The notes beneath the pieces were generated by a model that was not told the origin of the DNA, ran no database searches, and worked only from the letters and a program-made list of their open reading frames with translations. The translations under genes were made by a program, and so were the position numbers. Shown in pieces: positions 19,217 through 41,582 of a stretch of DNA of 45,677 nucleotides (its first letter is position 1; every line of letters begins with the position of its first letter). This stretch comes from a virus: the UHGV virus genome UHGV-1374574; one strand, written 5' to 3'.

Positions 19217-21298
19217 GTGGTAATTGTGGGTGCTATAAGTTCAACGATAATGCTGAATGATGCTATGTCGAATCCGTTAAAGAACATATCAAAAGCATTA
19301 AATATCGTTATCAACAACATGGAACGAGTAGCCGTTGCAGAGGATAATATGTTTGATATTCCACAGTTACACGCAGCCCGTGATGCCGTTTCCGCAGTTG
19401 AAGCAGAAATGCAACGTGTCGAACAACAGATACAAGATTCTGTCAATGCACAGAACAAACTTAACGATGCGTTTAATCAAGGCGAAGATGCGGCCAGTGG
19501 TTTGCTAAAGAATTTGCGAAACATAGCCGGAGCATATTTAACCATGCAGACCGTGGAAAAAGTAGTAGACACTTCCGATACGTTGACTTTAGGTAAACAA
19601 AGATTAGAATTGTTTGCCGGGGATGAATCTGTAGACGAACTTAACCAGAAGATTATGGCGAGTGCAACCCTTGCGAGGGCGGCTTATACTGACACTTTGA
19701 ATCAAGTAGCAAAGTTAGGTACAAACGCAAGCGAACACTTTGATAATAACGACCAGATTATCAAGTTTGTCGAGCAGTTTAACAAGTTGGCAACGTTATC
19801 CGGCGCAAGTGTTTATGAATCTTCACAGGCCATGTATCAGTTGACACAGTCTATGGCAAAGGGCAAACTTGACGGTGATGAATTACGATCCGTAATGGAA
19901 GGTATGCCACTGGTAGCAAAGCAGATTGCTAAATACTTAAATGTTGACGTTGGTACGATGAAAGAAATGGCAGCAGAAGGACTTGTAACCGCAGAGGTTG
20001 TAAGAAATGCTTTACTTACATCTGCAAACGAAACAGACGAAACGTTTAAGGACTTAGGTTATACATGGGGCCAGGTCGGAACACTGATAAGAAATGGAGC
20101 AACACAAGCATTCCAACCGCTTCTTAACAAGATTAACGAGATTGTTAATAACAAGAAGTTCCAAGAATTTGTTAATGACCTTGTCAGTAGTTTTCATGTT
20201 ATGAGTATTGTAGCCACAGGTGCTATAGATGCCATAGGTAAGGTAGCGGAATTTTGCTATGATAATTTCGAAATGTTGTTACCTTTAATAGCGTTTGCAA
20301 CTACTTTGATGGTAATAGGTGCGTTATCTGCTATAGCGCATTGGGCAGCCACAAGTTTAGCAACCGTTGGAATGGTAGCATATCAAGTTGCGTGTGGCTT
20401 ATCGGCTTTAGCAGTTGGAAATCTGACGATGGCACAAACTGCTTTTAATGCTGCATTATATGCTTGTCCTGTTACATGGATTATTGCGGCAGTTGTTGCA
20501 TTGATTGTAATAATTGTTTTGTTATGTAATTGGATTGCGGAAACGACAGAGTTAGCACAATCTGGTATAGGTTTAATTGCGGGCGCACTTATGATAGCGT
20601 GTGCATTTGTTGCTAACCTTTTCGTAGGACTTATCAATGTTGCCATTGACCTTTTCGTAGAATTATGGAATTTCTTAGCATCATTTGTGAATTTCTTTGC
20701 AAGTGTGTTTAATGATTTGGGCGGTTCTATCGCAAGACTGTTCCTTGATTTAGTTGATACGGTTTTGGGTGTATTAGAAATTATTGTCAGAGCAATGGAT
20801 GCCGTATTCGGTCAGAATTTAGGCGATGCAGTAGACGGTTGGAGAAGTGACCTTGAAAAATGGTCGGAGGACACATTTGGTAAAGGCACAGAAGTAATGG
20901 CAAAGATTAACTCAAGCGACTATCACGTTGGAACTTTCGATTATGGAGAGGCTTTTAAAGCCGGAACTGCATGGGGCGATGGTATTGCATCGAAATTCAA
21001 ATTGCCGGATTTTGATGATTTATTCAACATGGATGAATTGCTTGATAGTTCATGGAAAACTGCTTACAATACGGACGATATTGCTAACACTCTCGAAATT
21101 ACATCAGAGGAATTAGAATATTTAAGAGATATTGCAGAGCAAGAAGCAATCAACCGATTTACTACAATTCCATTAACAGTGACATTTGAGAACACAAACA
21201 ACGTAAATAACGAAATGGATCTTGATGGTGTGACAAATTACATCGAAGAACAGTTAATTGAAAGCATCTATAGTTCCGCAGAAGTGGCGCATTATTAA
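19217..21298 (+). CDS. tail tape measure protein
   Basis: 693 aa, helical N-terminus, central hydrophobic segments; position. Confidence 0.85.
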   Translation: MVIVGAISSTIMLNDAMSNPLKNISKALNIVINNMERVAVAEDNMFDIPQLHAARDAVSAVEAEMQRVEQQIQDSVNAQNKLNDAFNQGEDAASGLLKNLRNIAGAYLTMQTVEKVVDTSDTLTLGKQRLELFAGDESVDELNQKIMASATLARAAYTDTLNQVAKLGTNASEHFDNNDQIIKFVEQFNKLATLSGASVYESSQAMYQLTQSMAKGKLDGDELRSVMEGMPLVAKQIAKYLNVDVGTMKEMAAEGLVTAEVVRNALLTSANETDETFKDLGYTWGQVGTLIRNGATQAFQPLLNKINEIVNNKKFQEFVNDLVSSFHVMSIVATGAIDAIGKVAEFCYDNFEMLLPLIAFATTLMVIGALSAIAHWAATSLATVGMVAYQVACGLSALAVGNLTMAQTAFNAALYACPVTWIIAAVVALIVIIVLLCNWIAETTELAQSGIGLIAGALMIACAFVANLFVGLINVAIDLFVELWNFLASFVNFFASVFNDLGGSIARLFLDLVDTVLGVLEIIVRAMDAVFGQNLGDAVDGWRSDLEKWSEDTFGKGTEVMAKINSSDYHVGTFDYGEAFKAGTAWGDGIASKFKLPDFDDLFNMDELLDSSWKTAYNTDDIANTLEITSEELEYLRDIAEQEAINRFTTIPLTVTFENTNNVNNEMDLDGVTNYIEEQLIESIYSSAEVAHY

Positions 21299-23885: not shown

Positions 23886-24938
23886 ATGACACATGAAGAA
23901 ATTTTAGACCGTATGCTTGCAGATATTCCGAATGAGATAGACAAACGAGAGGGCAGTTTAGCTCACGATGTTTTGTCTGCCGCAGCCATAGAATTTATGC
24001 TTGCGTATGAAGAAAATGAAATGATAATGACAGAGACGTATGCGGACAGTGCCAGTATGGATGGCTTGATTAGAAGAGCATCTGAACGAGGACTGCAACC
24101 GAATGCGCCAACAAATGCGATTGTAAAAGGCGAATTTAACATTGCCGTTGCAATCGGAGAACGCTTTTTCCTGGATGATTTAACTTATGTTGTGACAGAG
24201 CAGATAAACGACACTACATTTAAGTTAATGTGTGAACAGCCAGGAACTATTGCAAACGGTTATACAGGAACCATTATTCCAATCCAGGCGATTGCCGGAC
24301 TTGAAAGTGCAGAGATTACAGAAATTCTTGTTTTGGGTGAGGATGAACAGTCCGAGGACAGTTTTAGACAGGAATATTTCGATTCTTTCAATAACAATCA
24401 GTACGGTTGGAACAAAGCACAGTACATCGCAAGTGTCAATGACATTAACGGTGTTGGTGGCGTTCATGTTTACCCACACACAAACGGCAATATGGAAACA
24501 GAAGTCGGTAATGTGGCATTGGTAATACAGGCAAGTGATTATGGCATTCCTACAGCGGAAACAGTAAGCCTGGTAAAACAGACACTCGATCCGACAGACG
24601 GTAACGGAGACGGCCTTGTATCAATCGACCATAACGTACACGTTTTCCCTTGCGGTAGCACTTCTGTAGACGTTGGATTGACACTGACTTACGCAGAAGG
24701 GTATTCGTGGGAAGCAATCGGCAACACAATCACACAGGCTATTGATGACTACTTTACTGAGCTTAATAAGGAATGGGAAACAACAGCAGTCATTGTTCGT
24801 ATTAGTCAGTTAGATGCAAAAATACTCAATGTACAAGGCGTTGTTGACATTTTCGGCACCACACTGAACGGGGGAACAAAAAACCTTGAAATCAGTGCTG
24901 ACAATATCGCAGTAAGGGGGAATATAAGTGCTAACTAG
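23886..24938 (+). CDS. baseplate J-like protein (XkdT-like)
   Basis: 350 aa, position, size typical of baseplate J. Confidence 0.7.
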   Translation: MTHEEILDRMLADIPNEIDKREGSLAHDVLSAAAIEFMLAYEENEMIMTETYADSASMDGLIRRASERGLQPNAPTNAIVKGEFNIAVAIGERFFLDDLTYVVTEQINDTTFKLMCEQPGTIANGYTGTIIPIQAIAGLESAEITEILVLGEDEQSEDSFRQEYFDSFNNNQYGWNKAQYIASVNDINGVGGVHVYPHTNGNMETEVGNVALVIQASDYGIPTAETVSLVKQTLDPTDGNGDGLVSIDHNVHVFPCGSTSVDVGLTLTYAEGYSWEAIGNTITQAIDDYFTELNKEWETTAVIVRISQLDAKILNVQGVVDIFGTTLNGGTKNLEISADNIAVRGNISAN

Positions 24939-25470
24939 ACCTATTGATATTTATTCTTACTTTCCACCAGTCGTTGCGGAAACGAAAGAAATAAAGCATA
25001 TATCTAATGCACTTACCAACGAGTTCAAGCGGTTACAGAAAGCAAGAGACGAGACCTACAAAAATCAGTTTGTTTCCACTCTTGAACCGTCCGGGTGTAG
25101 GCGTTGGGAGAAAATGCTTAATATTGCCTCCAAACAAACTGACAGTCTCGAAACAAGAAGGTTACGAATTAACAGTCTTATTACATCGGAAATACCATAT
25201 ACAAAAGAAACGTTGAAAACGATGTTGACTAATATCTGTGGAGACGCTGGGTATTTTTTAGAGATAGACAATTCGAACCTTACTGTGGTTGTTAAACTGG
25301 AATTAACCAATAAAGAGCAGCAAAAGATTGTAGAAAGCACACTGGATAAAATTATCCCGGCTAATATGATGTTAGATGTAAGCATTATATATGTAACACA
25401 TGAAGCAGTTGCACAATATACACATGGACAACTTGCATCTTATACTCATGCTAAGATTCAAGGAAATTAA
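24928..25470 (+). CDS. baseplate/tail fibre attachment protein (XkdU-like)
   Basis: Position. Confidence 0.45.
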   Translation: MLTRPIDIYSYFPPVVAETKEIKHISNALTNEFKRLQKARDETYKNQFVSTLEPSGCRRWEKMLNIASKQTDSLETRRLRINSLITSEIPYTKETLKTMLTNICGDAGYFLEIDNSNLTVVVKLELTNKEQQKIVESTLDKIIPANMMLDVSIIYVTHEAVAQYTHGQLASYTHAKIQGN

Positions 25471-25485: not shown

Positions 25486-26349
25486 ATGCAAAAGACAACA
25501 AACTACGGTTTTAATAAACCAGAATCTACGGATTTTTACAACATTGAAGATTTCAATGAAAATGCGGATCTGATAGATGAAAAATTGAAAGCAATTGAAG
25601 AACTTGCGAACCCTCAAGATTTGGATAACCACAAAAATGATAAGAGTAATCCTCATGGAGTTACGGCGGCACAGGTTGGTCTTGGCAATGTACCAAACGT
25701 TGCAACCAATGACCAGACACCGACTTACACGGTAGCAAGTGAAAACACAGCATTGTCCAGTGGCGAAAAATTAAGCGTTGCTTTTGGCAAAATCGCAAAG
25801 GCAATCAGCACTTTTATTTCCCATATTGCTGATGCTACAATTCATCATTCCCACAGCAACAAAACTGTACTGGATAACACTACGGCATCTTATACCACAG
25901 ACGAGAAAACAAAGTTAAGTGGTATCGCAAGCGGTGCAAATGCCTATACGCATCCGAATAGCGGTGTTACGGCTGGAACATATAGGAGCGTTACAGTGAA
26001 TGCGGCTGGACACGTTACGGGCGGTACAAACCCAACAGTGACAGTTGCGCAGGGTGGCACTGGTGCAACAACATTTTCGTCTGGGCAAGCCTTAATCGGT
26101 GCTGGTACTGGAGCCGTTACCACAAGAGCGATTACAAACAATACGGCTACTACAACAGCGATTACGGCAAGTACAAACCTTGTTACGATGAACACTCTTA
26201 AAAATGTAGTGAACCGAACAACGGGTATCGGCACAGCAGACACTAACTATGGAACTTCTATGGTAAGAGCGATTAGTGCTGGTACATCGGATTTAACGGC
26301 TGGAAGTAGCACACTGTTAAGCGGTGCTATTTATATCGTTTATGAGTAA
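25486..26349 (+). CDS. tail fibre protein, variant 1
   Basis: Gly/Thr-rich C-terminus; N-terminal ~110 aa paralogous to 28341..29066. Confidence 0.65.
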   Translation: MQKTTNYGFNKPESTDFYNIEDFNENADLIDEKLKAIEELANPQDLDNHKNDKSNPHGVTAAQVGLGNVPNVATNDQTPTYTVASENTALSSGEKLSVAFGKIAKAISTFISHIADATIHHSHSNKTVLDNTTASYTTDEKTKLSGIASGANAYTHPNSGVTAGTYRSVTVNAAGHVTGGTNPTVTVAQGGTGATTFSSGQALIGAGTGAVTTRAITNNTATTTAITASTNLVTMNTLKNVVNRTTGIGTADTNYGTSMVRAISAGTSDLTAGSSTLLSGAIYIVYE

Positions 26350-26361
26350 GGCGGTGGCGAT

Positions 26362-27684
26362 ATGGCGAAAGGTTTATACTTTGGCGTAGGCGGTAAAGCC
26401 CGTAAAGGGAAAAAGGCTTACTTTGGTGTAGGCGGTAAGGCTAGGAAAATCAAGAAAATGTATATCGGTATCGGCGGTAAGGCAAGGTTGTGTTTTAGTA
26501 GCGGATTATTCGGTAAAGCACACGCGAGATTTACTGAAACTACAATTCCAGTAGTGCTTAATAATCCCGACGTTGCTAATCCGTCTACATGGACGGTCAG
26601 TAAAAAAAATAGTTCATCTACTACCATTGGTTCTTCTGCTTATGCGTTTGGAAAATGGTTTTCGGGATATAACGCTCCACCCAGCGGTACGTTTGATACA
26701 ACATTATGGTATTCCACAGATGGAATAACATTTACGCAATGCCCAGCGTGTACCATATTCAAAGATAACGACGGCAAGACAAACGTAAGTACACGTGGAG
26801 GAAATGTTAGTCCACTTATAAATTGTGACGGAAGATTATTCGGAAGAAGTTTAACTATCACTGGTTCAAGTGGTTCACAATCGGGTGGCGGTGGTACAAC
26901 ATACGTTACCTACGTGGAGTTCGACTCCACTGGGGCAAAAATCGACCAAGCAACTGGTTATAATTTTACTTACAGTTCTGTCAATTCGGGTTATGGTTAT
27001 CCAACTGGGACTTTTAGCAGAGCATATAGTAATATGGTTTATCATAACGGGTGCATATATCATGCTATACATCGTCGTGAAAAAGCGAGTGGCGAGGCTA
27101 TATGCTATATTAGTTTAGAAATGTACGATATTGCCAATAAGACTTTTACGACAGTGGCAAGTAATTTCTTTACTTTTCACGAACCTACATCGTCCGCAAA
27201 TGGTTCGCCGACATATAGTGGTACTGCGTCAAGGATACATCTTTGCGGTAATAGTATCTTAATAAACTATAACCATAAGATGTACCGATACGATATTAGC
27301 ACAAAAGCGATAACGGAATTAACTACAGTAACGACAACTTTTTGTCCAGTGTTCTATAGCCGTATCAATGAGACTACTTTTCTTGATAGTTATAGTGCTA
27401 CAAAAAGGGTATACTCTTATGATGGTACTACGCTGACGCTAGTTACCACACATACAAATAATTGCTATGTTAGTGGGCAAACGTGGTGTGGAGATAGAAA
27501 TATTTCATTATCCGCAAGTAGAGCGACGAAAACGGACACTACAGCGACTATTACGTTTGCATACACGTTTGACGGAGTTACTTATACTGTAGATACCAGC
27601 ATGACTACTCCAAGTGGGGCTCTTACCAGTTATGGAGGTAATCTCACGTCGTTTAGCATTAACACATACCTAGAGGAGAGTTAA
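26362..27684 (+). CDS. receptor-binding-module protein with N-terminal triple repeat and Asp-box-like motifs
   Basis: 3x YFGVGGKARK repeat at N-terminus; WYSTDGITFTQ and YSYDGTTLTL (SxDxGxT-like). Confidence 0.55.
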   Translation: MAKGLYFGVGGKARKGKKAYFGVGGKARKIKKMYIGIGGKARLCFSSGLFGKAHARFTETTIPVVLNNPDVANPSTWTVSKKNSSSTTIGSSAYAFGKWFSGYNAPPSGTFDTTLWYSTDGITFTQCPACTIFKDNDGKTNVSTRGGNVSPLINCDGRLFGRSLTITGSSGSQSGGGGTTYVTYVEFDSTGAKIDQATGYNFTYSSVNSGYGYPTGTFSRAYSNMVYHNGCIYHAIHRREKASGEAICYISLEMYDIANKTFTTVASNFFTFHEPTSSANGSPTYSGTASRIHLCGNSILINYNHKMYRYDISTKAITELTTVTTTFCPVFYSRINETTFLDSYSATKRVYSYDGTTLTLVTTHTNNCYVSGQTWCGDRNISLSASRATKTDTTATITFAYTFDGVTYTVDTSMTTPSGALTSYGGNLTSFSINTYLEES

Positions 27685-27696
27685 GGAGGATTTTAT

Positions 27697-28071
27697 ATGA
27701 ATTTATTAGTTACAGCAGACGGACGTATTTTACTGTACGCTCCTAAAATTGTGTACGGATATTTCGACGAGGCATTCGAAAAGTGGGCATTACTTGACGA
27801 AAACGACAACGTAATGATGTATGCAATTAACCATAACTACACAGTAGCAGAGGTTGACAGTTTACCAGAGGATTACGAAGATGGTAAGTACTTCTACCGC
27901 AACAACGAATTTGTACTTAACAAAGACTGGGAGCCGTTCATTCCAGAGGAGAAGCGAGTGGACGTTCTGGAGAGAACTGTTACAGACCTCCAGACCGAAA
28001 TAGCGGATTTAGTCGAGTGTCAAGCCGATACTATGTATGAGTTATCCCTCATGCAGTTAGGCATGATATAA
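27697..28071 (+). CDS. XkdW-like protein
   Basis: 124 aa acidic protein preceding XkdX-like ORF. Confidence 0.4.
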   Translation: MNLLVTADGRILLYAPKIVYGYFDEAFEKWALLDENDNVMMYAINHNYTVAEVDSLPEDYEDGKYFYRNNEFVLNKDWEPFIPEEKRVDVLERTVTDLQTEIADLVECQADTMYELSLMQLGMI

Positions 28072-28096
28072 AAAAAATCTAAGGAGGTACGAAAGC

Positions 28097-28243
28097 ATGG
28101 CGTACAAGTTAGTAAAGCAGTTAATCAAGTTAGGTAGAAAATCCAAAGTTGAATTGCTCAACTACTGTGATGTGTATTACGCTTCTGGCAGACTGACAGA
28201 CGAAGAATACACCGAACTGATTAACGAAATTGAAGCAATGTAG
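28097..28243 (+). CDS. XkdX-like small protein
   Basis: 48-aa ORF (below track cut-off), MAYKLVKQLIKLG...RLTDEEYTELINEIEAM resembles XkdX family. Confidence 0.45.
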   Translation: MAYKLVKQLIKLGRKSKVELLNYCDVYYASGRLTDEEYTELINEIEAM

Positions 28244-28248
28244 TGCAT

Positions 28249-28272
28249 GAGAACCTAAACGGTTCTTTTTTT
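28249..28272 (+). terminator. rho-independent terminator
   Basis: GAACC-TAAAC-GGTTC + TTTTTTT. Confidence 0.65.
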
Positions 28273-28340
28273 ATTGCACAAAAGAACGTAGAACGCACAG
28301 AAGATAACAAATTTAAAGTATAAGGAAGGAGTTATCTTCT

Positions 28341-29066
28341 ATGCAGACTACGACCAATTACGGTTTGAAAAAGCCGGAAGGAACAGATTTTTATAATGTC
28401 GAAGATTTCAACGATTCATTCGATATTATTGACACCGAATTAAAAGCAACTTCAACCAGGACAGACAATGCAATAGCACACTTATCAGATACAAGCAATC
28501 CTCATGGTGTTACAAAAGAACAGGTTGGACTTGGGAACGTTCCGAATGTAGCGACTAACGACCAAACACCGACTTATACCGTTGTTTCATCAAACACTGC
28601 TCTTTCAAGCGGAGAAAAGTTATCGGCTGCAATGGGTAAGATTGCAAAGGCAGTTAGCAGCTTAATCTCTCATTTATCCGACACCGTAGGCCATATTACA
28701 AGTGCAGAGCGAACAGCATGGAACGGGAAACTAAATGCTACAGGCGGTAGAATAACTGGACAAATTGTTTTTGCTGGAGGTTTGAGTGGTTCAGAAGGAG
28801 GCGAAGTAATATTTGTGAAACCAGATAGTGACAACGCCTTTGGCTCCGATATATCTGTTGATGTTCAAAAGAACAATTTTCGTGTTTTTGCAACGCATAA
28901 CGGTAGCACTAAAGTCTTTTCGGTTGATTACACAACATTAAAACCAGAAACAAACATCGCATTGCATACAGGAAACTCCGTGCCAGTAGTCGTAACGGAC
29001 ACCGATCCTGGCGAAGGTGCAAATGTTTCTTTCTTAGAAGGTACCATTATCTTCGTGAAAGGCTAG
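28341..29066 (+). CDS. tail fibre protein, variant 2
   Basis: N-terminus ~65-70% identical to 25486 protein (NPHGVT..QVGLGNVPNVATNDQTPTYTV), divergent C-terminus. Confidence 0.65.
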   Translation: MQTTTNYGLKKPEGTDFYNVEDFNDSFDIIDTELKATSTRTDNAIAHLSDTSNPHGVTKEQVGLGNVPNVATNDQTPTYTVVSSNTALSSGEKLSAAMGKIAKAVSSLISHLSDTVGHITSAERTAWNGKLNATGGRITGQIVFAGGLSGSEGGEVIFVKPDSDNAFGSDISVDVQKNNFRVFATHNGSTKVFSVDYTTLKPETNIALHTGNSVPVVVTDTDPGEGANVSFLEGTIIFVKG

Positions 29067-29074
29067 GTGATATT

Positions 29075-30136
29075 ATGGCAAATAAAGCATATATCACTTC
29101 TGCCGGAAAGACCGTAAATATTTCCAATGCTTATGTGTGCGATAATTTGAAAACAGTAAAAGCAAGAAAGGCGTATCGTGTTGAAGACGGAAAAACCGCA
29201 TTGCTTTGGAATCGCCTTTTTCCATATATCGTAGGTTTCTACAAAGGCACTGAAATATACGGTTCACAGGACGGCATAAATTACGAAAGTGTTGGAACGC
29301 TTAACTTCAATCCACGTTGTATAACATTTGGAAATGGAAAATATGTGGCCTTGGGAGAAGCCGGACAAACCGCATATTCGACAGACGGTGCATCATGGAT
29401 AACATCAAGCACTGGAAAGAGCGACATATTTGATAGCGTTGCCTATGGAAACGGCAGATTTGTTGCGATTGGCTATAATGGTGCTTCATATTATTCACTA
29501 GATGGAATAACATGGACGGCAATGAGTGGGCATGGAACGTATGACTACCATTTCGTTGATTACTTTTCTTCTGGTGTATGGATGTGTTGTGGTGATGGAA
29601 TGTCGTGCTATTCCACAGACGGAACAACGTGGATTCAAATGCGAAACATTAGTGATGATGTAACATATTACTGTATTGCGTATGACGGTGTTTATTACTA
29701 CATTAGCACAGATAGTAGCGAGGGTATTTATTGCAAAAAGACACCACAAGAATTATGGGGTGTTTCTGGTTATTTTAACATGATGAACTCCTCAACGGCT
29801 GCCGGAGTAACATATACTCCACAGGCGCATATGCAGATTGTTGGAGAATATATGTATGTAATAGGCGAATTTACTAAAACCGATACACAGACAGCATATC
29901 CTTATCGGTTTAAATATCCGTATGCTTCGGGTGTGACTAGAGAAAAATTCGCATTGCCTAAAGATTCGTATTTTATGCACGGCCCAAGAAAAACATACGT
30001 TGACGGAGAGTATATATATGTCCATTATACTACTTATGGTTTTTATAGATTAAATACAAGCACTCTCACATGGGAACTTGTAATGAGCAATCCGACACAA
30101 AATGGTATGTCAGCGATTGCAAAGGGGAAAATATAG
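29075..30136 (+). CDS. Asp-box (BNR-like) repeat beta-propeller protein, putative receptor-binding
   Basis: YSTDGASWIT, YSLDGITWTA, YSTDGTTWIQ = SxDxGxTW repeats; paralogous start to 26362 protein. Confidence 0.55.
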   Translation: MANKAYITSAGKTVNISNAYVCDNLKTVKARKAYRVEDGKTALLWNRLFPYIVGFYKGTEIYGSQDGINYESVGTLNFNPRCITFGNGKYVALGEAGQTAYSTDGASWITSSTGKSDIFDSVAYGNGRFVAIGYNGASYYSLDGITWTAMSGHGTYDYHFVDYFSSGVWMCCGDGMSCYSTDGTTWIQMRNISDDVTYYCIAYDGVYYYISTDSSEGIYCKKTPQELWGVSGYFNMMNSSTAAGVTYTPQAHMQIVGEYMYVIGEFTKTDTQTAYPYRFKYPYASGVTREKFALPKDSYFMHGPRKTYVDGEYIYVHYTTYGFYRLNTSTLTWELVMSNPTQNGMSAIAKGKI

Positions 30137-30162: not shown

Positions 30163-30696
30163 ATGGAGGAAATGACAACAGTTGTATATTACGAAACGGT
30201 GCTTTGGGTGGCCGGGATTTATTCCGTGGCTAATTTTATCAAGTGGCTATATCCAATTTTATGTAAACTCTATGAGTTTATTTTTAAAAAGTTGGGCGTT
30301 ACAACTAAGGGCATGAGAAAACGAGAAGCAAACGAAAAGAGACTTGAAAATACTGAAAAATCCATTGCAGAAATCGTAGATAAGATTGAAGCGTTTAAGA
30401 ATGAGATAGTCGCAGAACTTAATCGGCTCCAGGATAAAGTAGATGAACAGAAAGTAGAAATGGACGAAACAAAGAGAGCAAATGATAAAACCGACTGCGC
30501 TATGCTCCGTGACCGTATCGGTAGTGGCATGAGATACTTTAGCAAAAACATAGCACCAGACGGAAAAGTACATATCTCATGGAGCGATTGGGAGAACATG
30601 AACGCATTGTTCCAGGAATACTTTTCAAAGCATGGAAACGGAGCGTTTCGTAAAATGTATGACGATGAGTTTGTACACTTTATTATTGACAGATAG
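30163..30696 (+). CDS. membrane-anchored coiled-coil protein (XhlA-like lysis accessory)
   Basis: N-terminal TM helix then long coiled coil; precedes holins. Confidence 0.4.
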   Translation: MEEMTTVVYYETVLWVAGIYSVANFIKWLYPILCKLYEFIFKKLGVTTKGMRKREANEKRLENTEKSIAEIVDKIEAFKNEIVAELNRLQDKVDEQKVEMDETKRANDKTDCAMLRDRIGSGMRYFSKNIAPDGKVHISWSDWENMNALFQEYFSKHGNGAFRKMYDDEFVHFIIDR

Positions 30697-32063: not shown

Positions 32064-33596
32064 TTATTTTCTCGGCATTTTTGGATAGATTTTAATTGTG
32101 AAATTGTGCATACCATCTTCACTTTTCCAAAACTCCACTTTTTCGAGGACTTCTTTAAATAACAGATTGCGTCCGACAGTGTCTATATCATCGTACATAT
32201 CGAAAAGCCGTTCAACTTTTGGTGCGAATGATTCATTGTCGGTTGCAAATGTTTTTTCGTTCTCTATTAGTTCTTTCGTGCTGACAATATCAGCGTCAAT
32301 CTTCTTTTTTCGAGCGAAAAGCGTTTCCGACCTCTTATTGTACATATCAAGTGAATAAACACCTTTTTCGAGTAAATCACAAAGAGAATCAATCTGGCCG
32401 TCCACGGTAGTTAATTCATCTTTGAGAGCAGCGAGAGTAGATTCGTACAACGGTAATTGTGATTCTCTAACAAGCGGAACACTTTCTACAGTGTAATCTG
32501 CGTACCATTCTTTTAGAGCATCAAGTACACGTTCTACAACTAAGTGGTGTCTGGCCTGTTTATTACCACAGTTATAACGGCACTTTAAATAACCCGGATA
32601 TTTCTTGTCACGGGATGTATATATCATGGCTTTTCCACAACAACCACATTTCATAATTCCGGCAAGTTCATTTTTTAAATCTTTATTATCGTTGCAACCT
32701 GTTTTTGTGTTCGAAAGTCTGATAGATTGCACTTTATAATATTGTTCTTCTGTAATAAGCGGTTCGTGAATACCGTCTACAATTTCTATTTTCGATTTTT
32801 CGTTACGTTTTACTTTCTTAGTTTCCACACCATCTGTTAATATTCTTTGTGTCGATTTGATACCACGCACAACTTTACCAATATAGTGAGGATTCTGTAA
32901 TGCACGTTTGATAACTGAACCAGTCCACAAGGAACCGTGTCGAGTTGGAACACCGAGTTTGTTTAACTTATCGGCAATAGTATTTACTCCAATACCTTGT
33001 TCTGCCATATCGTACATCATGCGTAAATACGGTGCTTCTTGTTCGTTTGGTGTCAGTGTATATCCTTTGCCTTTTTGAACTTTCATTCTGTTATATCCAT
33101 ACGGAGCAACGGAAGGTATATACAATCCCTGGTTGAAAGATTTCACTCTGCCATCAATAAGACGTTTCTTAATACTGTTATACTCTATGCGAGCAAAGAA
33201 AAGTTTCATTTCAAAGAATTGTGAATCAGACGGATCGCAAGGGTTGTAAATCTTATCTGGTGTAACAATGTTTACTTTCATGTAGAAAACCGTACTGAAA
33301 ATTCTACCCTGGTCCGACATATTACCACGACTCAAACGGTCAACATCATATACAAGTAAATTATCTACTTCCCCCTGTTCCATCAATCTAAGGACTTTTT
33401 GTATTTCTGGTCGTGCAACGATGGTGTCACCAGAAACGATTTCACGATAGATGTGGTCCTCTGTTACTGGCATATTCAATCGCTTAGACAATTCCATTAA
33501 AGCATTGTAATGTCTAGTGAGTGTTTCGCCTTGCCCACTTTGTTCCGCTTCTATATCTTCACGGCTTTTTCTTAGATACATCACATTGATTCCCAT
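32064..33596 (-). CDS. large serine recombinase (integrase)
   Basis: N-terminal resolvase motifs YLRKSRED, VYDVDRLSR; recombinase domain; zinc ribbon CGCCGKAMIY...CRYNCGNK; coiled coil. Confidence 0.85.
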   Translation of the reverse strand: MGINVMYLRKSREDIEAEQSGQGETLTRHYNALMELSKRLNMPVTEDHIYREIVSGDTIVARPEIQKVLRLMEQGEVDNLLVYDVDRLSRGNMSDQGRIFSTVFYMKVNIVTPDKIYNPCDPSDSQFFEMKLFFARIEYNSIKKRLIDGRVKSFNQGLYIPSVAPYGYNRMKVQKGKGYTLTPNEQEAPYLRMMYDMAEQGIGVNTIADKLNKLGVPTRHGSLWTGSVIKRALQNPHYIGKVVRGIKSTQRILTDGVETKKVKRNEKSKIEIVDGIHEPLITEEQYYKVQSIRLSNTKTGCNDNKDLKNELAGIMKCGCCGKAMIYTSRDKKYPGYLKCRYNCGNKQARHHLVVERVLDALKEWYADYTVESVPLVRESQLPLYESTLAALKDELTTVDGQIDSLCDLLEKGVYSLDMYNKRSETLFARKKKIDADIVSTKELIENEKTFATDNESFAPKVERLFDMYDDIDTVGRNLLFKEVLEKVEFWKSEDGMHNFTIKIYPKMPRK

Positions 33597-33991
33597 TATT
33601 TACCCCCATTGTTTAAAAACTGCATATAAGATAAAAGTCTTTCATAATTCTTTGCGTCCATCTGTGCTAATTCGATTAAAATTTCTTCGCCACATTCAGA
33701 TGTAATTAAATATTGAACAGTTTCGTTCTGTACTGGTGTTAATGAGTATTCTTCAACTAAACAGGATTTTGTTGTATTGAAAAATTCTGCCATTTTCTCA
33801 ATCTTATCAATTCTAGGGTAATATTCACCACGATACCACCCGGCAAATGTAGTAACAGGAACACCGAGTTCCTTTGCAATCATTTCTTTTGTATATCCTT
33901 TATCTTCCCACATTGCAATGTATTTATTTAAGTTCTTAGCAAAAGTCTGTTTGTTACCATAATTACTAATAGCAATAGTCATAATACACAC
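33596..33991 (-). CDS. XRE-family HTH repressor (CI-like)
   Basis: HTH FAKNLNKYIAMWEDKGYTKEMIAKELGVPVTTFAGW; divergent from cro; stop overlaps integrase start (TAATG). Confidence 0.7.
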   Translation of the reverse strand: MCIMTIAISNYGNKQTFAKNLNKYIAMWEDKGYTKEMIAKELGVPVTTFAGWYRGEYYPRIDKIEKMAEFFNTTKSCLVEEYSLTPVQNETVQYLITSECGEEILIELAQMDAKNYERLLSYMQFLNNGGK

Positions 33992-34116
33992 TCCTTTTAA
34001 ATTTTTGTTTGATTTTGTAAGTTCATTATACGACTAAACCGTAATAAATGCAAGTGAAAAAACAAAGAAATTTTAACAAATTAGTAAAATCATTTCATAA
34101 ATTCCAAAAATTACTA

Positions 34117-34146
34117 TTGACAAGAACGGTTTAACAGTGGTAATAT
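34117..34146 (+). promoter_or_regulatory. cro promoter TTGACA-18-TAATAT with operator half-site in spacer
   Basis: Spacer AGAACGGTTTAACAGTG resembles AACGGTTTAACCGTT dyad. Confidence 0.55.
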
Positions 34147-34174
34147 GTGGATACAACAGGAAAGGGGGTGCAAC

Positions 34175-34366
34175 ATGGGGATGACTCTAAAGGCTGCAAG
34201 AGTAAACAGAAACATGACACAGAAGCAAGCCGCTACCGAACTGGGAGTTTCTAGTGAAACAGTAAGAAGTTGGGAAAAAGGAAAGACATTTCCAAACACA
34301 GAACAGGTTCGTAAAATCGAAGAATTGTACGGCTTAACTTATGCAGAGATTGACTTTACTAGATAA
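34175..34366 (+). CDS. Cro-like XRE HTH regulator
   Basis: MTQKQAATELGVSSETVRSWEKGKTFP HTH; ATG 34175 after AAAGGGGG. Confidence 0.6.
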   Translation: MGMTLKAARVNRNMTQKQAATELGVSSETVRSWEKGKTFPNTEQVRKIEELYGLTYAEIDFTR

Positions 34367-34393
34367 TGGTGTCATATTTTTTTAACCCAAAAC

Positions 34394-34408
34394 AACGGTT
34401 TAACCGTT
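34394..34408. promoter_or_regulatory. AACGGTTTAACCGTT palindrome (operator/attenuator copy a)
   Basis: Perfect dyad followed by TTGGAGG. Confidence 0.5.
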
Positions 34409-34588
34409 TTGGAGGTTCGGCTACATAAAAGTTTGGTAAAACGGCAAAACGGTAGAAAATGAGGTGAGGATTGGAGGAAGTCAGAAAATTTGGAGCAACC
34501 ACTGTCATTATTTCGGACAAATATGTGACTGATAATGACAGAAAAATCAAAGAAGCACTGAAAAGAATTTCAGAGATAAGGAGCAGAT

Positions 34589-34831
34589 ATGAACGAAAAA
34601 GAGTTAGCACTTGATTTTGCACAGTTTTTTGAACCTATGGTAAATAGTGTCAGAGATAATGGGGCAGAATGGTGTACGATTTCTGTAAACAGAAACGGAT
34701 TGGTTTCTGCAACATTTTATGAATCTAAAGATGGAAGATATGAAAAAAAACTGGAAGTGGCAAGAAATCTTGATGGAGAAGTTAGAGTTATCAGAGAGGA
34801 AAAGTTGGAGGTAGAGAATGGGAACAAGTAA
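34589..34831 (+). CDS. hypothetical protein
   Basis: 80 aa ORF. Confidence 0.45.
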   Translation: MNEKELALDFAQFFEPMVNSVRDNGAEWCTISVNRNGLVSATFYESKDGRYEKKLEVARNLDGEVRVIREEKLEVENGNK

Positions 34832-35612
34832 TACACAGTTAATCACACAGGTACATACTGGCCTTGCCGATGCGTTGGAAAGTCAGAAAGATGCGTTGCC
34901 GTTAGGTTTTAACACCAAGAGATTTTTACAGAACGCAGTATTTCTTATCAGAGATGGGAAATCCGATTTTTCACAATGTGAACCTGTATCTATTGTACGC
35001 ACTTTAATGAAAGCGTCCTTTTTGGGTTTAGATCCGATGAACGGAGAATGTTACGCAATCCCATACGGTAAACAGTGCCAGTTTCAGACGGACTATAAGG
35101 GCGAAGTGAAGTTGTGTAAGAAGTATTCTATCCGGGAAGTACAGGACATTTACTCTAAGGTGGTTCGCAAGGGAGACGATTTCACAGAAAAGATTGTTGA
35201 CGGTAGACAGACAATCGAGTTTTCTCCGTTACCGTTTAATGACAATGAGATAGTCGGTGCATTTGCAGTTGTTTTATATAAAGACGGTGGCATGAGTTAC
35301 GAAGTTATGAGTAAGGCAGACATTGAGAGTGTCAGAACAAATTACAGTAAAGCAAAGGATTCTGGCGCATGGCGTAATAGTTATGATGAAATGTGTAAAA
35401 AGACCGTTTTAAGACGTTTATGCAAGCACATTGAATTGGATTTCGAAACTGCCGAAATGCAGAGATTATTTGAGGAAACTTCCGATTTTGATGTACATAA
35501 GAAGCCGGATAAACCAGTTGTGCCGAATGTATTCGAAAATGAAGCAGATATTGTCGAAGTGGACTATACAGAACTTGAAGAAATCAATACAGATAATTTA
35601 CCGTTTGCATAG
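34818..35612 (+). CDS. recT: RecT-family single-strand annealing protein
   Basis: Characteristic RecT core (..FLGLDPMNGECYAIPYG..) and acidic C-terminus. Confidence 0.75.
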   Translation: MGTSNTQLITQVHTGLADALESQKDALPLGFNTKRFLQNAVFLIRDGKSDFSQCEPVSIVRTLMKASFLGLDPMNGECYAIPYGKQCQFQTDYKGEVKLCKKYSIREVQDIYSKVVRKGDDFTEKIVDGRQTIEFSPLPFNDNEIVGAFAVVLYKDGGMSYEVMSKADIESVRTNYSKAKDSGAWRNSYDEMCKKTVLRRLCKHIELDFETAEMQRLFEETSDFDVHKKPDKPVVPNVFENEADIVEVDYTELEEINTDNLPFA

Positions 35613-35620
35613 GAGACAGT

Positions 35621-36454
35621 ATGAGTGATTATATATTAACACCACAAAATTACTACGACCTTGAAAGTGACCGCAGATATTGTTCGGCATCACAGTTTAA
35701 AAAGTTCGTATCATTAGGAACAACGGCTTGTGAAGCAAAAGCAATCGCTGAATTAAAGGGAAAATATAAAGAACCGAAAAGTGATGCACTCATATTCGGC
35801 AGTATCGTTGATTACTTGTGGGAGCATGACGGTGATTTAACTGATTTCAACAAAGAACACCCGGACATTGACTTATTTAGTAGCCGTGGGGCCACAAAGG
35901 GAAATATTCTTGCGAAGTGGCAGAAGGCCATTGATGTTTATAATCGCACCAAAGAGGATGAACTTTTTTCGCAGTTTATGAGTGGCGAAAAGCAGAAAAT
36001 CTTCACTGGCACGATTGAAGGTGTGAATTTTAAGTGTAAACTTGACAGTTACATTCCACATAAGGCTATTGTAGACCTTAAAACAACAAGGTCAATCCGT
36101 AAGCCGTTTCGGATCACTGACGTAGGTTATGTAAGTTTCGTTGAGAAATATTCGTACACACATCAAATGGCAATCTACCAGGAGTTAGTGAGACAGAATA
36201 CAGGAGAAACATTACCGTGTTTCATTGCTGCCGTTTCAAAAGAAGATGTGCCGGATATTGAAATCATCTATCTTGACGATGAAGTTTTGAGAGAAGCACT
36301 GATAGAAGTCAAAGCGAAGATAGGCAATGTTCAGATGTTGAAGAACGGAGAAATAGAACCTATCAGATGCGAGGTATGTGATTATTGCAAGTCAAGTAAG
36401 AAACTGACAAAGGCTATTCACTTTAGCGAATTATTGCTTGATTATACGGACTAA
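35621..36454 (+). CDS. PD-(D/E)XK exonuclease (Cas4/RecB-like, with Cys cluster)
   Basis: IVDLKTT motif; N-terminal C plus C-terminal CEVCDYC cluster; partner of RecT. Confidence 0.6.
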   Translation: MSDYILTPQNYYDLESDRRYCSASQFKKFVSLGTTACEAKAIAELKGKYKEPKSDALIFGSIVDYLWEHDGDLTDFNKEHPDIDLFSSRGATKGNILAKWQKAIDVYNRTKEDELFSQFMSGEKQKIFTGTIEGVNFKCKLDSYIPHKAIVDLKTTRSIRKPFRITDVGYVSFVEKYSYTHQMAIYQELVRQNTGETLPCFIAAVSKEDVPDIEIIYLDDEVLREALIEVKAKIGNVQMLKNGEIEPIRCEVCDYCKSSKKLTKAIHFSELLLDYTD

Positions 36455-36473
36455 ATTTTTTTTACTCATTAAA

Positions 36474-36488
36474 AACGGTTTAACCGTT
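36474..36488. promoter_or_regulatory. AACGGTTTAACCGTT palindrome (copy b)
   Basis: Identical 15-mer followed by TTGGAAAGG. Confidence 0.5.
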
Positions 36489-36504
36489 TTGGAAAGGAGA
36501 ACAC

Positions 36505-36759
36505 ATGGAAGTTACACCTATTGACAGAAACAGGTTTTATCGACTGATTACAGAGGTTTTATCCAATAAGGAACTTACGGCAAGGGAGATAGCGGAAGTC
36601 CTATTTTTACGAGGTTACATTATGACTGCTACAAGACAGGAAGTTGCGCCACGCCTTACTGAATTAGAGAAAATGGACCGTGTCGAGGTTGTCGGTTCGA
36701 AAGTCGATGTGCTAACGAAAAAACGTGTGAGTATTTACAGATTATGTGGAGCGCATTAA
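36505..36759 (+). CDS. putative winged-helix DNA-binding protein
   Basis: LTAREIAEVLFLRGY...RQEVAPRLTELEKMDRVEV pattern. Confidence 0.4.
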   Translation: MEVTPIDRNRFYRLITEVLSNKELTAREIAEVLFLRGYIMTATRQEVAPRLTELEKMDRVEVVGSKVDVLTKKRVSIYRLCGAH

Positions 36760-37019: not shown

Positions 37020-37027
37020 GAGGGAAC

Positions 37028-37264: not shown

Positions 37265-37265
37265 A

Positions 37266-37454: not shown

Positions 37455-37469
37455 AAAGGTGGAAATAGC

Positions 37470-37883: not shown

Positions 37884-37893
37884 GAGGTAGTCT

Positions 37894-38543: not shown

Positions 38544-38561
38544 TTTTTTTTAAAAGAAAAA

Positions 38562-41573: not shown

Positions 41574-41582
41574 TGGGATAAA

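What the first reader, a model, noticed from the sequence alone, without database searches (positions are those of the whole stretch)
25486..30136. Two tandem paralogous receptor-binding modules (tail fibre plus Asp-box beta-propeller protein each)
The fibre genes 25486..26349 and 28341..29066 share a conserved N-terminal ~110 aa, ~65-70% identical at DNA level, with unrelated C-termini. Each is followed by a paralogous protein carrying SxDxGxTW (Asp-box/BNR-like) repeats (26362..27684 and 29075..30136). XkdW/XkdX-like genes and a terminator separate the two modules. This suggests dual or alternative host-receptor specificity, or a substrate for modular recombination. It is not explained by a DGR or an invertase, since neither is present.
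Basis: seen in the sequence. Interest (0 to 1): 0.55.

Follow-up and report, generated by a model that had tools for sequence, protein, structure and literature searches.

The report
Two tandem tail-fibre/receptor-head cassettes
A temperate gut-type phage with a contractile tail carries two consecutive gene pairs, each a short baseplate-docking fibre plus a beta-propeller "head" protein, so it probably has two host-recognition devices; this is a known strategy, but the small plug-and-socket junction joining fibre to head looks widespread and I found no description of it.

Summary
The core observation holds. Genes 25486-26349 and 28341-29066 share about 125 N-terminal residues (65% amino-acid identity, E 2e-53) and have unrelated C-termini. 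An XkdW-like gene, an XkdX-like gene and a conserved terminator hairpin separate the two modules.

Two details need correcting:
- The downstream proteins (440 and 353 aa) are not demonstrable paralogues (BLASTP E 0.28; hhalign 27%).
- Neither contains a canonical SxDxGxTW box.

The two proteins do share an architecture:
- Both start with three 14-residue beta-hairpin repeats. This "anchor" is canonical in p440 and degenerate in p353.
- Both then have a beta-propeller-type body. The p353 model is good over residues 50-215; the p440 model is moderate.

Comparative genomics gives the likely logic:
- The fibre N-terminus is the baseplate-docking motif, found right after XkdT/XkdU in many Clostridia prophages.
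- Each fibre ends in a short "tip" motif that co-occurs with anchor-bearing partners. In 161 unbiased loci, 7 had both, 154 had neither, and none had only one.
- This fits the baseplate-attachment-protein plus RBP scheme described for Clostridioides difficile diffocins and phage phiCD508.

Close relatives keep the two-cassette layout but swap its contents. Overall this is a dual receptor-binding-protein arrangement of a known kind, of moderate interest. The tip/anchor connector and a conserved start-codon-sequestering hairpin before fibre 2 are the new details.

The parts
25486..26349 (+). fib1: 287-aa adaptor fibre of cassette 1, placed immediately after the XkdU/Mu-Gp48-like gene
   Evidence: ORF. 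PHROG tail-fibre families hit. 64% identical to fib2 over the first 130 aa. Position after Baseplate_J and Mu Gp48 genes.
25492..25590 (+). N1 motif of fib1 (aa 3-35), putative baseplate-docking segment
   Evidence: The fibN1 HMM hits it. The same motif heads the gene after XkdU in 47 of 80 Clostridia/Bacilli prophage loci whose remainders are unrelated.
25627..25833 (+). N2 shaft unit of fib1 (aa 48-116)
   Evidence: The fibN2 HMM hits it. This unit occurs as 1-4 tandem copies in related fibres.
26281..26346 (+). C-terminal tip motif of fib1 (..AGTSDLTAGSSTLLSGAIYIVYE)
   Evidence: Every fibre directly followed by a canonical-anchor protein ends in this motif. In 161 unbiased loci tip and anchor always co-occur: 7 both, 0 discordant.
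26362..27684 (+). p440: head protein of cassette 1, with an N-terminal anchor and a beta-propeller-like body
   Evidence: Only three full-length homologues exist. The AF2 model has pLDDT 68 and Foldseek finds Kelch, GH43 and sialidase propellers at E 3e-5.
26362..26505 (+). Canonical anchor of p440 (aa 1-48; three 14-aa repeats, consensus kaYIGVgGKARKvK)
   Evidence: Scores 92 bits against an HMM built without it. Shared at 70-80% identity by proteins with Kelch, DUF6242, Gly_rich_2, DUF6273 or GH43 bodies. 2268 cluster representatives match, nearly all of the 150 listed at residues 1-48. Predicted as six beta strands.
27697..28071 (+). 124-aa gene in the XkdW position (possible assembly factor)
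   Evidence: ORF. 65% identical in L002/L003. Only weak similarity to the equivalent L164 gene (E 0.024). No Pfam or PHROG hit.
28097..28243 (+). 48-aa XkdX-like gene
   Evidence: phrog_2310 at 5e-12. BLASTP to the L164 equivalent at 5e-10 and to the PF09693-annotated L169 gene at 5e-4.
28249..28275 (+). Terminator-like hairpin plus T-run between the cassettes
   Evidence: Found by the scan. Conserved in L002-L004, with two compensatory pairs in L004.
28282..28344 (+). Conserved box AAGAACGTAGAACGCACAGAAGATAA, plus a 13-14-bp stem that loops out the Shine-Dalgarno sequence and pairs the fib2 start codon
   Evidence: Invariant across four phages. The box is unique in the window. The 108-nt stretch 28238-28345, which also contains the terminator hairpin, folds at -28.2 kcal/mol, z -4.7. 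Consensus structure. No Rfam match.
28341..29066 (+). fib2: 241-aa adaptor fibre of cassette 2
   Evidence: ORF. N1 (aa 3-35) and N2 (aa 46-114) HMM hits. Position-2 fibres of L003 and L004 are 69-71% identical in this N-domain.
28998..29063 (+). Divergent tip of fib2 (..DTDPGEGANVSFLEGTIIFVKG)
   Evidence: Matches the tip pattern. It resembles L245 ..TTDPGEGSELDTGKILVVYEE and L249 ..EPADGSASTYPNGTITFVKKA. The L249 tip precedes the closest p353 relative.
29075..30136 (+). p353: head protein of cassette 2, with a degenerate anchor and an Asp-box-like beta-propeller
   Evidence: 363 homologues, matching mainly residues about 55-190. AF2 gives pLDDT above 90 for residues 50-215. Foldseek finds Ycf48, DAIP, GH74 and sortilin at E 1e-6, and many phage fibre/BNR proteins in BFVD.
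29084..29212 (+). Degenerate anchor of p353 (aa 4-46: AYITSAGKTVNISN / AYVCDNLKTVKARK / AYRVEDGKTALLWN)
   Evidence: Not significant against the anchor HMM alone (7.9 bits). hhalign of p353-type N-termini against the anchor gives probability 86%, E 5e-6, in the same register. Propeller homologues P0010 and P0106 carry the canonical anchor.

Best explanation
The window is a complete temperate PBSX-like myovirus genome. Its tail operon ends with two receptor-recognition cassettes of the same design.

1. Each cassette starts with a short trimeric-fibre-type adaptor (fib1, fib2). The N-terminal ~35 residues (N1) dock on the XkdT/XkdU baseplate wedge and the next ~70 residues (N2) form a shaft unit.
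2. Each adaptor ends in a ~22-residue tip.
3. Twelve (cassette 1) or eight (cassette 2) nucleotides after the adaptor's stop codon, a head protein is encoded (p440, p353).
4. The head protein's N-terminal three 14-residue beta-hairpin repeats (the anchor) bind the tip of its own adaptor. Its beta-propeller body contacts the host surface, probably a cell-wall glycan or surface protein.
5. Cassette 1 uses the canonical tip and anchor. Cassette 2 uses a divergent pair, which would keep each head on its own fibre.
6. Because both adaptors carry the same docking domain, virions should carry both devices, or mixtures of them. That would give dual or alternative receptor use.
7. Cassette 2 lies behind a conserved terminator and a start-codon-sequestering hairpin, so its dosage is probably set separately.

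Shown: gene structure, homologies, folds, co-occurrence statistics and conservation.
Inferred: physical tip-anchor binding, presence of both products in the virion, receptor binding, and any regulation.
For: **Context**
- The gene order is TMP, LysM/XkdP, XkdQ, XkdR, XkdS, Baseplate_J/XkdT, Mu-Gp48/XkdU, then the cassettes, then holins and lysin.

**N1 as the docking segment**
- It heads the first gene after XkdU in 47 of 80 distant prophages whose fibre remainders are unrelated.
- Mini-adaptors exist: 66 aa in L104 (N1 + tip) and 62 aa in L166 (tip, no N1).

**Tip and anchor**
- In loci selected without regard to either feature, 7 have both, 0 have only one and 154 have neither.
- In five further contexts with three different tail types, the upstream gene always ends in a tip.
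- Of 72 scored anchor genes in IMG/VR loci, 66 abut a tip gene and 6 lie within 2 kb. In L248 two genes intervene, so the link is not mere adjacency.

**Anchor as a portable module**
- It is fused to Kelch, DUF6242, Gly_rich_2, DUF6273 and GH43 bodies.
- 2268 cluster representatives match it.

**Cassette 2 as a genuine unit**
- The closest p353 relative, P0002, follows an N1 fibre with a fib2-like tip. It sits directly after XkdU and is followed by XkdW- and XkdX-like genes.

**Head proteins as propellers**
- p353-type propellers are fused directly to fibre N-termini in other proteins (P0095, P0050, P0100).

**Precedent**
[quoted passage not shown] The cognate distal part is needed, and short downstream genes act as chaperones (PMC4453579).
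- In phiCD508, gp67 is the tail fibre and gp68 the RBP (bioRxiv 10.1101/2023.08.04.551987).

**Host-range-type variability**
- Relatives with XkdT 92% and lysin 73-75% identical keep two cassettes but with different C-termini and partners.
Against: - No experiment or complex model shows that tip and anchor bind each other. Most pairs are adjacent, so part of the co-occurrence could reflect co-inheritance of a junction block.
- The p353 anchor is not significant against the anchor HMM on its own (E 0.15).
- The p440 model has only moderate confidence (pLDDT 68) and the protein has just three full-length homologues.
- If both adaptors use the same docking site they may compete, so one could dominate.
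- A terminator and a structured start site precede cassette 2 and could mean it is poorly expressed.
- Cassette 2 lacks its own XkdW/XkdX-like genes.
- No receptor or host is known. The best genome match is 48% identical in XkdT.
Confidence: 0.6

Rival explanations
1. Only one cassette is used in the virion at a time. The other is a silent or weakly expressed spare, retained as raw material for host-range shifts by recombination with other phages.
For: A conserved terminator and a start-codon-sequestering hairpin lie in front of fib2. Cassette contents are shuffled among relatives. Both adaptors would compete for the same docking motif.
Against: Both cassettes are intact, with good ribosome-binding sites, in two independent assemblies. 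The two-cassette layout is kept in all close relatives long enough to show it: L003, L004, and L002 up to its end. The holin and lysin genes lie downstream of the same terminator and must be expressed. There is no exact repeat longer than 11 nt for internal exchange.
Confidence: 0.15
2. The 440- and 353-aa proteins are not receptor-binding heads. They are fibre assembly chaperones or free glycan-degrading or glycan-binding accessory proteins, and the fibres themselves bind the receptor.
For: Genes just downstream of fibres often encode assembly proteins (established for Tfa/gp38-type proteins; own knowledge; chaperone remark in PMC4453579). fib2 has its own C-terminal domain shared with the L003 fibre 2 at 38%. 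Propeller folds also occur in GH43, GH74 and sialidase enzymes.
Against: At 353-440 aa they are larger than the fibres. They have hypervariable bodies on a conserved N-terminal module, which is the pattern of RBPs rather than chaperones. Adaptors of only 62-66 aa (L104, L166) have no room for a receptor-binding domain. p353-type propellers occur fused to fibre N-termini. No catalytic family was matched.
Confidence: 0.15
3. Cassette 2 belongs functionally to the lysis/late-late unit that follows it, like XepA after XkdX in PBSX. It would act at release or in the lysogen rather than in adsorption.
For: It lies after a terminator, in the position PBSX uses for xepA (own knowledge of PBSX gene order). 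It is co-directional with p177, the holins and the lysin.
Against: fib2 has the full baseplate-docking N1 and N2 domains. The same tip/anchor/propeller unit occupies the primary fibre slot in L249. No similarity to lysis proteins was found.
Confidence: 0.07

Closest known systems
Baseplate-attachment protein (RtbL/PtsL; phiCD508 gp67) plus receptor-binding protein (RtbM/PtsM; gp68) of C. difficile diffocins and myophages
   Same: Both have a short 'tail fibre' gene right after the baseplate genes, followed by a larger variable RBP gene and then two short genes. The adaptor couples the RBP to the baseplate, and its distal part must be cognate to the RBP (PMC4453579; phiCD508 preprint). Cassette 1 here has exactly this gene order.
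   Different: This phage has two such cassettes in tandem. Its head proteins are propeller-type and carry a repeat anchor. Sequence relatedness to RtbL/M or gp67/68 was not tested. The second cassette lacks its own small downstream genes.
Dual-RBP or dual-fibre phages (Staphylococcus kayviruses with two RBPs; Shigella phage Sf14 with two long tail fibres; branched tailspike systems of CBA120, G7C and K1-5)
   Same: More than one receptor-recognition device is encoded side by side, often sharing N-terminal attachment modules, and this broadens or alternates host recognition. The sources are titles and term counts (PMC5618024, PMC5923476, PMC11821841), which I did not read; the rest is my own knowledge.
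   Different: Those are mostly virulent phages of other hosts with unrelated proteins. Here both adaptors share one docking domain on a minimal PBSX-type baseplate, and each has a separate non-covalently attached head.
Invertible tail-fibre cassettes of Mu (S-U/S'-U', Gin) and P1 (Cin)
   Same: Two alternative fibre-plus-partner gene pairs share a constant N-terminal fibre part (own knowledge).
   Different: Here there is no invertase and there are no inverted repeats. Both cassettes are on the same strand, and each fibre is a complete gene.
PBSX xkdV-xkdW-xkdX late genes
   Same: The gene order is baseplate J, XkdU, fibre, then small XkdW/XkdX-type genes before the lysis genes.
   Different: This phage has a split fibre (adaptor plus head), and a second cassette sits where PBSX has xepA.
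Asp-box/BNR-type beta-propellers (Ycf48, DAIP, GH74, sortilin Vps10; DUF6242)
   Same: The p353 model superposes on these folds (E 1e-6). Its repeat unit YGNGxFVAVG..YSTDGxxW recurs every 38-39 residues. It shows weak sequence-profile relatedness to DUF6242 and DAIP chains.
   Different: The motif is one residue shorter than the canonical SxDxGxTW box. No Pfam BNR hit was found. Only about four blades are confidently modelled. p440 resembles Kelch and GH43 propellers instead.

Membership tests
PBSX-type tail fibre (XkdV slot) with N-terminal baseplate-docking motif | Gene lies immediately downstream of the Baseplate_J (XkdT) and Mu-Gp48-like (XkdU) genes | tested here: met
   fib1 starts 16 nt after the XkdU-like ORF ends (15-nt gap). 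fib2 is the next fibre gene, 2.9 kb downstream.
PBSX-type tail fibre (XkdV slot) with N-terminal baseplate-docking motif | Shared N-terminal motif (N1) found on first-slot fibres of related prophages | tested here: met
   The fibN1 HMM hits aa 3-35 of both fibres and the post-XkdU gene in 47 of 80 genome loci.
Baseplate-attachment protein + RBP cassette (diffocin/phiCD508 type) | Short fibre-annotated adaptor followed directly by a larger, variable protein | tested here: met
   287 + 440 aa and 241 + 353 aa, with gaps of 12 and 8 nt. Partners vary among relatives.
Baseplate-attachment protein + RBP cassette (diffocin/phiCD508 type) | Adaptor physically binds the RBP and couples it to the baseplate | not testable with these tools
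   Only indirect support: strict tip/anchor co-occurrence and 62-66-aa mini-adaptors.
Baseplate-attachment protein + RBP cassette (diffocin/phiCD508 type) | Sequence homology to RtbL/RtbM or gp67/gp68 | not tested
   Those sequences were not retrieved. The C. mangenotii locus L147 has an N1-bearing 136-aa adaptor plus a 404-aa partner.
Baseplate-attachment protein + RBP cassette (diffocin/phiCD508 type) | Two short accessory/chaperone genes downstream of the RBP | tested here: inconclusive
   Cassette 1 is followed by the 124-aa and 48-aa genes. Cassette 2 is followed by a 177-aa membrane/coiled-coil protein instead.
Asp-box (BNR) beta-propeller | Canonical S-x-D-x-G-x-T-W repeats | tested here: not met
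   Zero canonical motifs. Relaxed [Y/G]SxDGxx[W/F/Y/L] motifs occur 4 times in p353 and 3 times in p440. No Pfam BNR hit.
Asp-box (BNR) beta-propeller | Beta-propeller fold | tested here: met
   p353: residues 50-215 have pLDDT above 90, and Foldseek finds Ycf48, DAIP, GH74 and sortilin at E 1e-6. p440: pLDDT 68, and Foldseek finds Kelch, GH43 and sialidase at E 3e-5, which is weaker.
p440 and p353 as paralogues | Significant sequence similarity of the two proteins or of their families | tested here: not met
   BLASTP best E is 0.28. hhalign of the families gives probability 27%. Only the N-terminal anchors align, at probability 86%.
Tip/anchor connector family (defined here) | Partner protein starts with three 14-aa repeats (kaYIGVgGKARKvK), and the upstream protein ends in ..TDLTxGxSxLxxGxIYxVYE or a variant | tested here: met
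   fib1/p440 is canonical. fib2/p353 is divergent: the tip fits the pattern, and the anchor is supported only by profile comparison and by the L249 pair.
Invertible fibre switch (Mu G / P1 C segment) | Site-specific invertase plus inverted repeats flanking oppositely oriented cassettes | tested here: not met
   Both cassettes are on the + strand. The best inverted repeat is 29 nt at 72%. The only recombinase is a 510-aa integrase-type large serine recombinase.
Diversity-generating retroelement target | Reverse transcriptase plus template/variable repeat pair with adenine-specific differences | tested here: inconclusive
   No RT domain appears among the called genes of L001, which cover window ~19.1-40.1 kb. 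The only long direct repeat is the conserved fibre 5' region, and its differences are not adenine-specific. The rest of the window was not scanned for RT.

The most novel reading that the evidence does not exclude
The ~22-residue tip and the ~48-residue three-hairpin anchor may form a general non-covalent plug-and-socket. It would let phages of gut Firmicutes with unrelated tails (PBSX-like, P2-like, siphovirus-like) exchange receptor-binding heads. This phage would exploit two mutually orthogonal versions, one canonical and one divergent, to load two different propeller heads onto one type of baseplate socket. The second would be dosed through a conserved terminator and a start-codon-sequestering RNA hairpin.
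Probability: 0.3. Interest if true: 0.6.

Novelty: new variant of a known kind. Interest (0 to 1): 0.42.

Why it matters
Host recognition by phages of anaerobic gut Firmicutes is poorly understood, and most of their tail-fibre genes are annotated 'hypothetical'.

This locus, with the roughly 250 related loci examined, suggests a simple reading rule for such genes: docking motif, shaft unit, tip, then an anchor-bearing head.

The anchor is a common N-terminal module that matched no Pfam family (2268 cluster representatives; 335 IMG/VR contigs). It marks candidate receptor-binding proteins.

If the tip and anchor really form a portable connector, it would help in two ways. It would aid annotation of RBPs in metagenomes, and it would guide engineering of host range in phages or tailocins, as was done by hand for Avidocin-CDs.

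The dual-cassette arrangement itself is an expected bet-hedging or host-range strategy rather than a surprise.

Tried and rejected
**Searches that gave no useful match**
- Megablast of the region against 50,697 phage records found nothing.
- tblastn of fib2 found only the N2 unit in SPbeta YomR-type proteins, at 38-39% identity.
- Pfam gave nothing for the four central proteins.
- PDB sequence searches gave nothing useful for the fibres.
- The genome scan found no close host; the best XkdT match is 48% identical.
- Cluster look-up gave no names or accessions.
- Literature searches for XkdV with 'tail fiber' found nothing.
- Rfam gave no hit for the intergenic element.
- The conserved box occurs nowhere else in the window.

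**Ideas considered and rejected**
- Recent tandem duplication: rejected, because identity is 65% at the amino-acid level and 62% at the nucleotide level, and the position-2 fibres of relatives are as close to fib2 as fib1 is.
- Recombination between the two copies within the genome: rejected, because the longest exact run is 11 nt.
- An invertible switch or a DGR: rejected.
- Paralogy of p440 and p353: rejected.
- Tip/anchor co-occurrence explained purely by adjacency: weakened by L248-type loci, where two genes intervene.

**Method notes**
- My first tip regex was too strict, and several 'anchor only' and 'tip only' loci look like truncation or regex artefacts. The co-occurrence claim therefore rests on the unbiased sets.
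- No sigma-70-type promoter stands out between the cassettes.

Full report
**What is in the sequence**

The window reads as a complete temperate phage genome. Its late operon has the PBSX/Clostridia-myovirus order:
- tape measure (19217-21298);
- LysM/XkdP, XkdQ, XkdR and XkdS;
- Baseplate_J/XkdT (23886-24938) and Mu-Gp48/XkdU (24928-25470);
- the region under study;
- a 177-aa membrane/coiled-coil protein, two holin-like genes and a lysin;
- a large serine recombinase and a repressor on the other strand.

An identical copy of the 19-40 kb part sits on an independent ENA metagenome contig (L001). No isolated phage resembles it at the DNA level. No sequenced genome carries a close prophage; the best XkdT match is 48% identical, in Clostridia.

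**Checking the observation**

The two fibres:
- fib1 (287 aa) and fib2 (241 aa) are 64% identical over their first 130 residues (E 2e-53) and unrelated afterwards.
- At the DNA level the shared part is 74-77% identical in blocks and 62% overall when codon-aligned.
- The longest exact run is 11 nt. This is an old divergence, not a fresh duplication, and it is useless as a substrate for homologous recombination inside this genome.

Between the modules:
- A 124-aa gene sits in the XkdW position.
- A 48-aa XkdX-like gene follows (phrog_2310, 5e-12; similarity to PF09693-annotated equivalents).
- A hairpin with a T-run lies at 28249-28275.

The claim that the two downstream proteins are paralogous SxDxGxTW proteins does not hold as written:
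- BLASTP finds nothing significant between them (E 0.28).
- Profiles of their families align with only 27% probability.
- Neither contains a canonical Asp-box. p353 has four YS(T/L)DGxxW-type motifs spaced 38-39 residues apart, and p440 has three degenerate ones.

**What the downstream proteins are**

p353 has hundreds of homologues, but they match mainly residues about 55-190. That stretch is a repeat unit, YGNGxFVAVG..YSTDGxxW.
- Its AlphaFold model is confident for residues 50-215.
- The model superposes on Asp-box-type propellers (Ycf48, DAIP, GH74, sortilin; E about 1e-6).
- It also matches many phage tail-fibre/BNR proteins in BFVD.

p440 has only three full-length homologues, at 53-58% identity.
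- More than a hundred other proteins share just its first ~48 residues at 70-80% identity.
- Behind that segment they carry quite different bodies: Kelch repeats, DUF6242-type propellers, Gly_rich_2, DUF6273 and GH43.
- The segment is three 14-residue repeats (consensus kaYIGVgGKARKvK), predicted as six beta strands. I call it the anchor.
- The p440 body models as a propeller with moderate confidence (pLDDT 68; Kelch, GH43 and sialidase hits at E 3e-5).

A search of 1.84 billion cluster representatives with the 51-residue anchor finds 2268 proteins. Nearly all of the 150 listed carry it at residues 1-48. 335 IMG/VR contigs encode it, and no Pfam family matched it in p440.

The N-terminus of p353 has the same 14-residue periodicity: AYITSAGKTVNISN / AYVCDNLKTVKARK / AYRVEDGKTALLWN.
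- On its own it is not significant against the anchor HMM (7.9 bits).
- Propeller homologues of p353 (P0010, P0106) carry the canonical anchor.
- A profile of p353-type N-termini aligns to the anchor in the expected register (hhalign 86%, E 5e-6).

So the two proteins share an architecture, anchor plus propeller-type head, rather than a demonstrable recent ancestry.

**What the fibres are**

An HMM of the first ~35 residues (N1) hits both fibres.
- It also hits the gene immediately after XkdU in 47 of 80 distantly related prophages of Clostridia and Bacilli. The rest of those proteins is unrelated.
- This is the behaviour expected of a baseplate-docking segment.

Residues ~45-115 (N2) form a unit that appears one to four times in tandem in other fibres, as a shaft module would.

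Every fibre directly followed by a canonical-anchor protein ends in the same ~22-residue tip..(T/S)DLTxGxSxLxxGxIY(I/F/V)(V/M)YE, or a ..TDPGxGSxL...VYV variant.

The co-occurrence of tip and anchor is strict:
- In the two locus sets chosen without reference to either feature (80 genome loci found through XkdT, 81 viral loci found through the fibre N-domain), 7 loci have both a tip-ending protein and an anchor protein. None has only one, and 154 have neither.
- Five further metagenomic contexts show the same pairing. Their tails are PBSX-like, P2-like and siphovirus-like.
- In L104 the 'fibre' is 66 residues, N1 motif plus tip. In L166 a 62-residue tip protein precedes the anchor protein.
- In L248-type phages two genes separate the tip gene from the anchor gene. 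The association is therefore not simply a conserved junction block.

The tip of fib2 (..DTDPGEGANVSFLEGTIIFVKG) fits the pattern.
- It closely resembles the tip of the L249 fibre (..EPADGSASTYPNGTITFVKKA).
- The L249 fibre precedes P0002, the closest relative of p353, which has the same degenerate type of anchor.
- That pair sits directly after XkdU and is followed by XkdW- and XkdX-like genes.
- Cassette 2 of the window is thus a unit that occupies the primary fibre slot in another phage.

**Most likely mechanism**

Each cassette encodes an adaptor fibre. The adaptor docks on the baseplate through N1/N2 and presents a tip. A head protein plugs into the tip through its anchor, and its propeller body binds the host surface.

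This is the scheme worked out for C. difficile diffocins and prophage phi027.
- The distal part must be cognate to the RBP, and short downstream genes improve activity (PMC4453579).
- The same scheme is assumed for phiCD508 gp67/gp68.

Two adaptors with the same docking domain but different tip/anchor pairs would let one baseplate carry two different heads. The particles would either all carry both or be a mixed population.

I put this at about 0.6. The gene-level facts are shown. Binding of tip to anchor, incorporation of both pairs, and receptor binding are inferred.

**Rivals**

- Cassette 2 is a weakly expressed spare (0.15).
- The propeller proteins are chaperones or free enzymes (0.15).
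- Cassette 2 works with the lysis genes (0.07).

The evidence for and against each is listed in the Rival explanations section.

**Distribution and evolution**

Close relatives (XkdT 92%, XkdU 77-83%, holins about 82%, lysin 73-75%) keep the layout fibre / (partner) / XkdW / XkdX / intergenic element / second fibre. The contents differ:
- L003 has a fib1-like tip with a p440 homologue in slot 1. In slot 2 it has a fib2-like fibre with a different end and a 196-aa partner carrying KNGSWT-type repeats.
- L004 has a partnerless 394-aa fibre in slot 1. In slot 2 it has a fibre with canonical tip plus a 186-aa anchor protein.

N-domains within this lineage are 60-71% identical to each other and 45-61% to outsiders. 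This suggests an old duplication, or convergence on the same baseplate.

Elsewhere two N1 fibres are uncommon:
- 1 of 29 genome loci with at least 5 kb of sequence from the fibre start has two, plus L149, which fell below that cut-off.
- 11 of 32 viral loci selected for N-domain similarity carry two fibre-type genes (N1 or N2 hit).
- L129 and L166 show independent cases of a second cassette.

**A side finding bearing on expression**

The 97-nt spacer between the XkdX-like gene and fib2 is conserved across four phages (83% mean column identity). This holds even where the upstream gene differs. It contains three elements:
- the terminator hairpin, with two compensatory base-pair changes in L004;
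- an invariant box, AAGAACGTAGAACGCACAGAAGATAA, unique in the window;
- a 13-14-bp stem that leaves the Shine-Dalgarno sequence in the loop and pairs the start codon of fib2. The 108-nt stretch including the terminator hairpin folds at -28.2 kcal/mol, z -4.7; the stem itself never varies, so covariation cannot test it.

No Rfam family matches. This suggests cassette 2, or everything downstream of it, is dosed separately, but that is untested.

**Comparison with known systems and novelty**

- The dual-RBP strategy is well known in other phages (and general knowledge).
- The adaptor-plus-RBP split is known from C. difficile systems.
- Propeller heads on phage fibres are common.
- This case is not an invertible Mu/P1-type switch or a DGR target.
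- What I could not find described is the tip/anchor connector itself, together with its breadth.

I therefore rate the finding a new variant of a known kind, with moderate interest (0.42). The most novel reading not excluded is a portable, orthogonalisable plug-and-socket with riboregulated dosing. I give it about 0.3 probability, and it would merit about 0.6 if true.

Noticed in passing
window 28244-28344: The conserved intergenic element before fib2 has a terminator hairpin with compensatory changes, an invariant 26-nt box, and a 13-14-bp stem pairing the fib2 start codon with the Shine-Dalgarno sequence in the loop. No Rfam family matches.
   Followed up: partly
window 30163-30696: A 177-aa protein has an N-terminal transmembrane segment, a coiled coil and a C-terminal domain, and lies between cassette 2 and the holins. 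Similar proteins sit just before the holins in L004 (55% identical), L003, L166 and L015. It hits only PHROGs of unknown function.
   Followed up: no
window 32064-33991 (- strand) and 34000-45677: A large serine recombinase (Resolvase + Recombinase + zinc ribbon) and an HTH repressor are followed by RecT, SSB and other early genes. The window therefore looks like a whole, circularly permuted temperate phage genome rather than a fragment.
   Followed up: partly
L092, L114, L126, L145 (about 11.58-11.85 kb in each 21-kb locus; about 1.7-2.0 kb in L126): This looks like a second adaptor/partner connector class. N1-bearing mini-proteins of 81-147 aa end in ..GGLKFSIxNGGLRVTYDDGE. They are followed by 160-400-aa proteins starting MA(E/Q/S)..(V/I)DIAK..T.(D/E)EIN.K.
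   Followed up: no
L186, L192, L202, L203, L205 (about 5.2-7.0 kb): Two consecutive tip-ending proteins, a long one and an 81-aa one, precede the anchor protein. This suggests chains or branching of tip-bearing adaptors.
   Followed up: no
P0265 and P0052: A 2318-aa protein contains 16 anchor-like stretches, and a 610-aa propeller protein carries the anchor at its C-terminus. The 14-residue repeat can therefore be used outside the N-terminal position.
   Followed up: no
L006-L019, L060, L077 and others: The ~70-residue N2 unit (..NPHGVTxxQVGLGNVxN..DQTPTYT..SGEKL..GKIAKAI..LISH) occurs as one to four tandem copies in related fibres, like a length-setting shaft module. It is also the part matching SPbeta YomR.
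   Followed up: partly
L003 5256-5846: The partner of the second fibre in L003 is a 196-aa protein. Its N-terminus has a different repeat (YKNGSWT / NKNGSWT / INGEWT) and follows a fibre ending ..TDTKALWIS. This may be yet another tip/anchor flavour.
   Followed up: no
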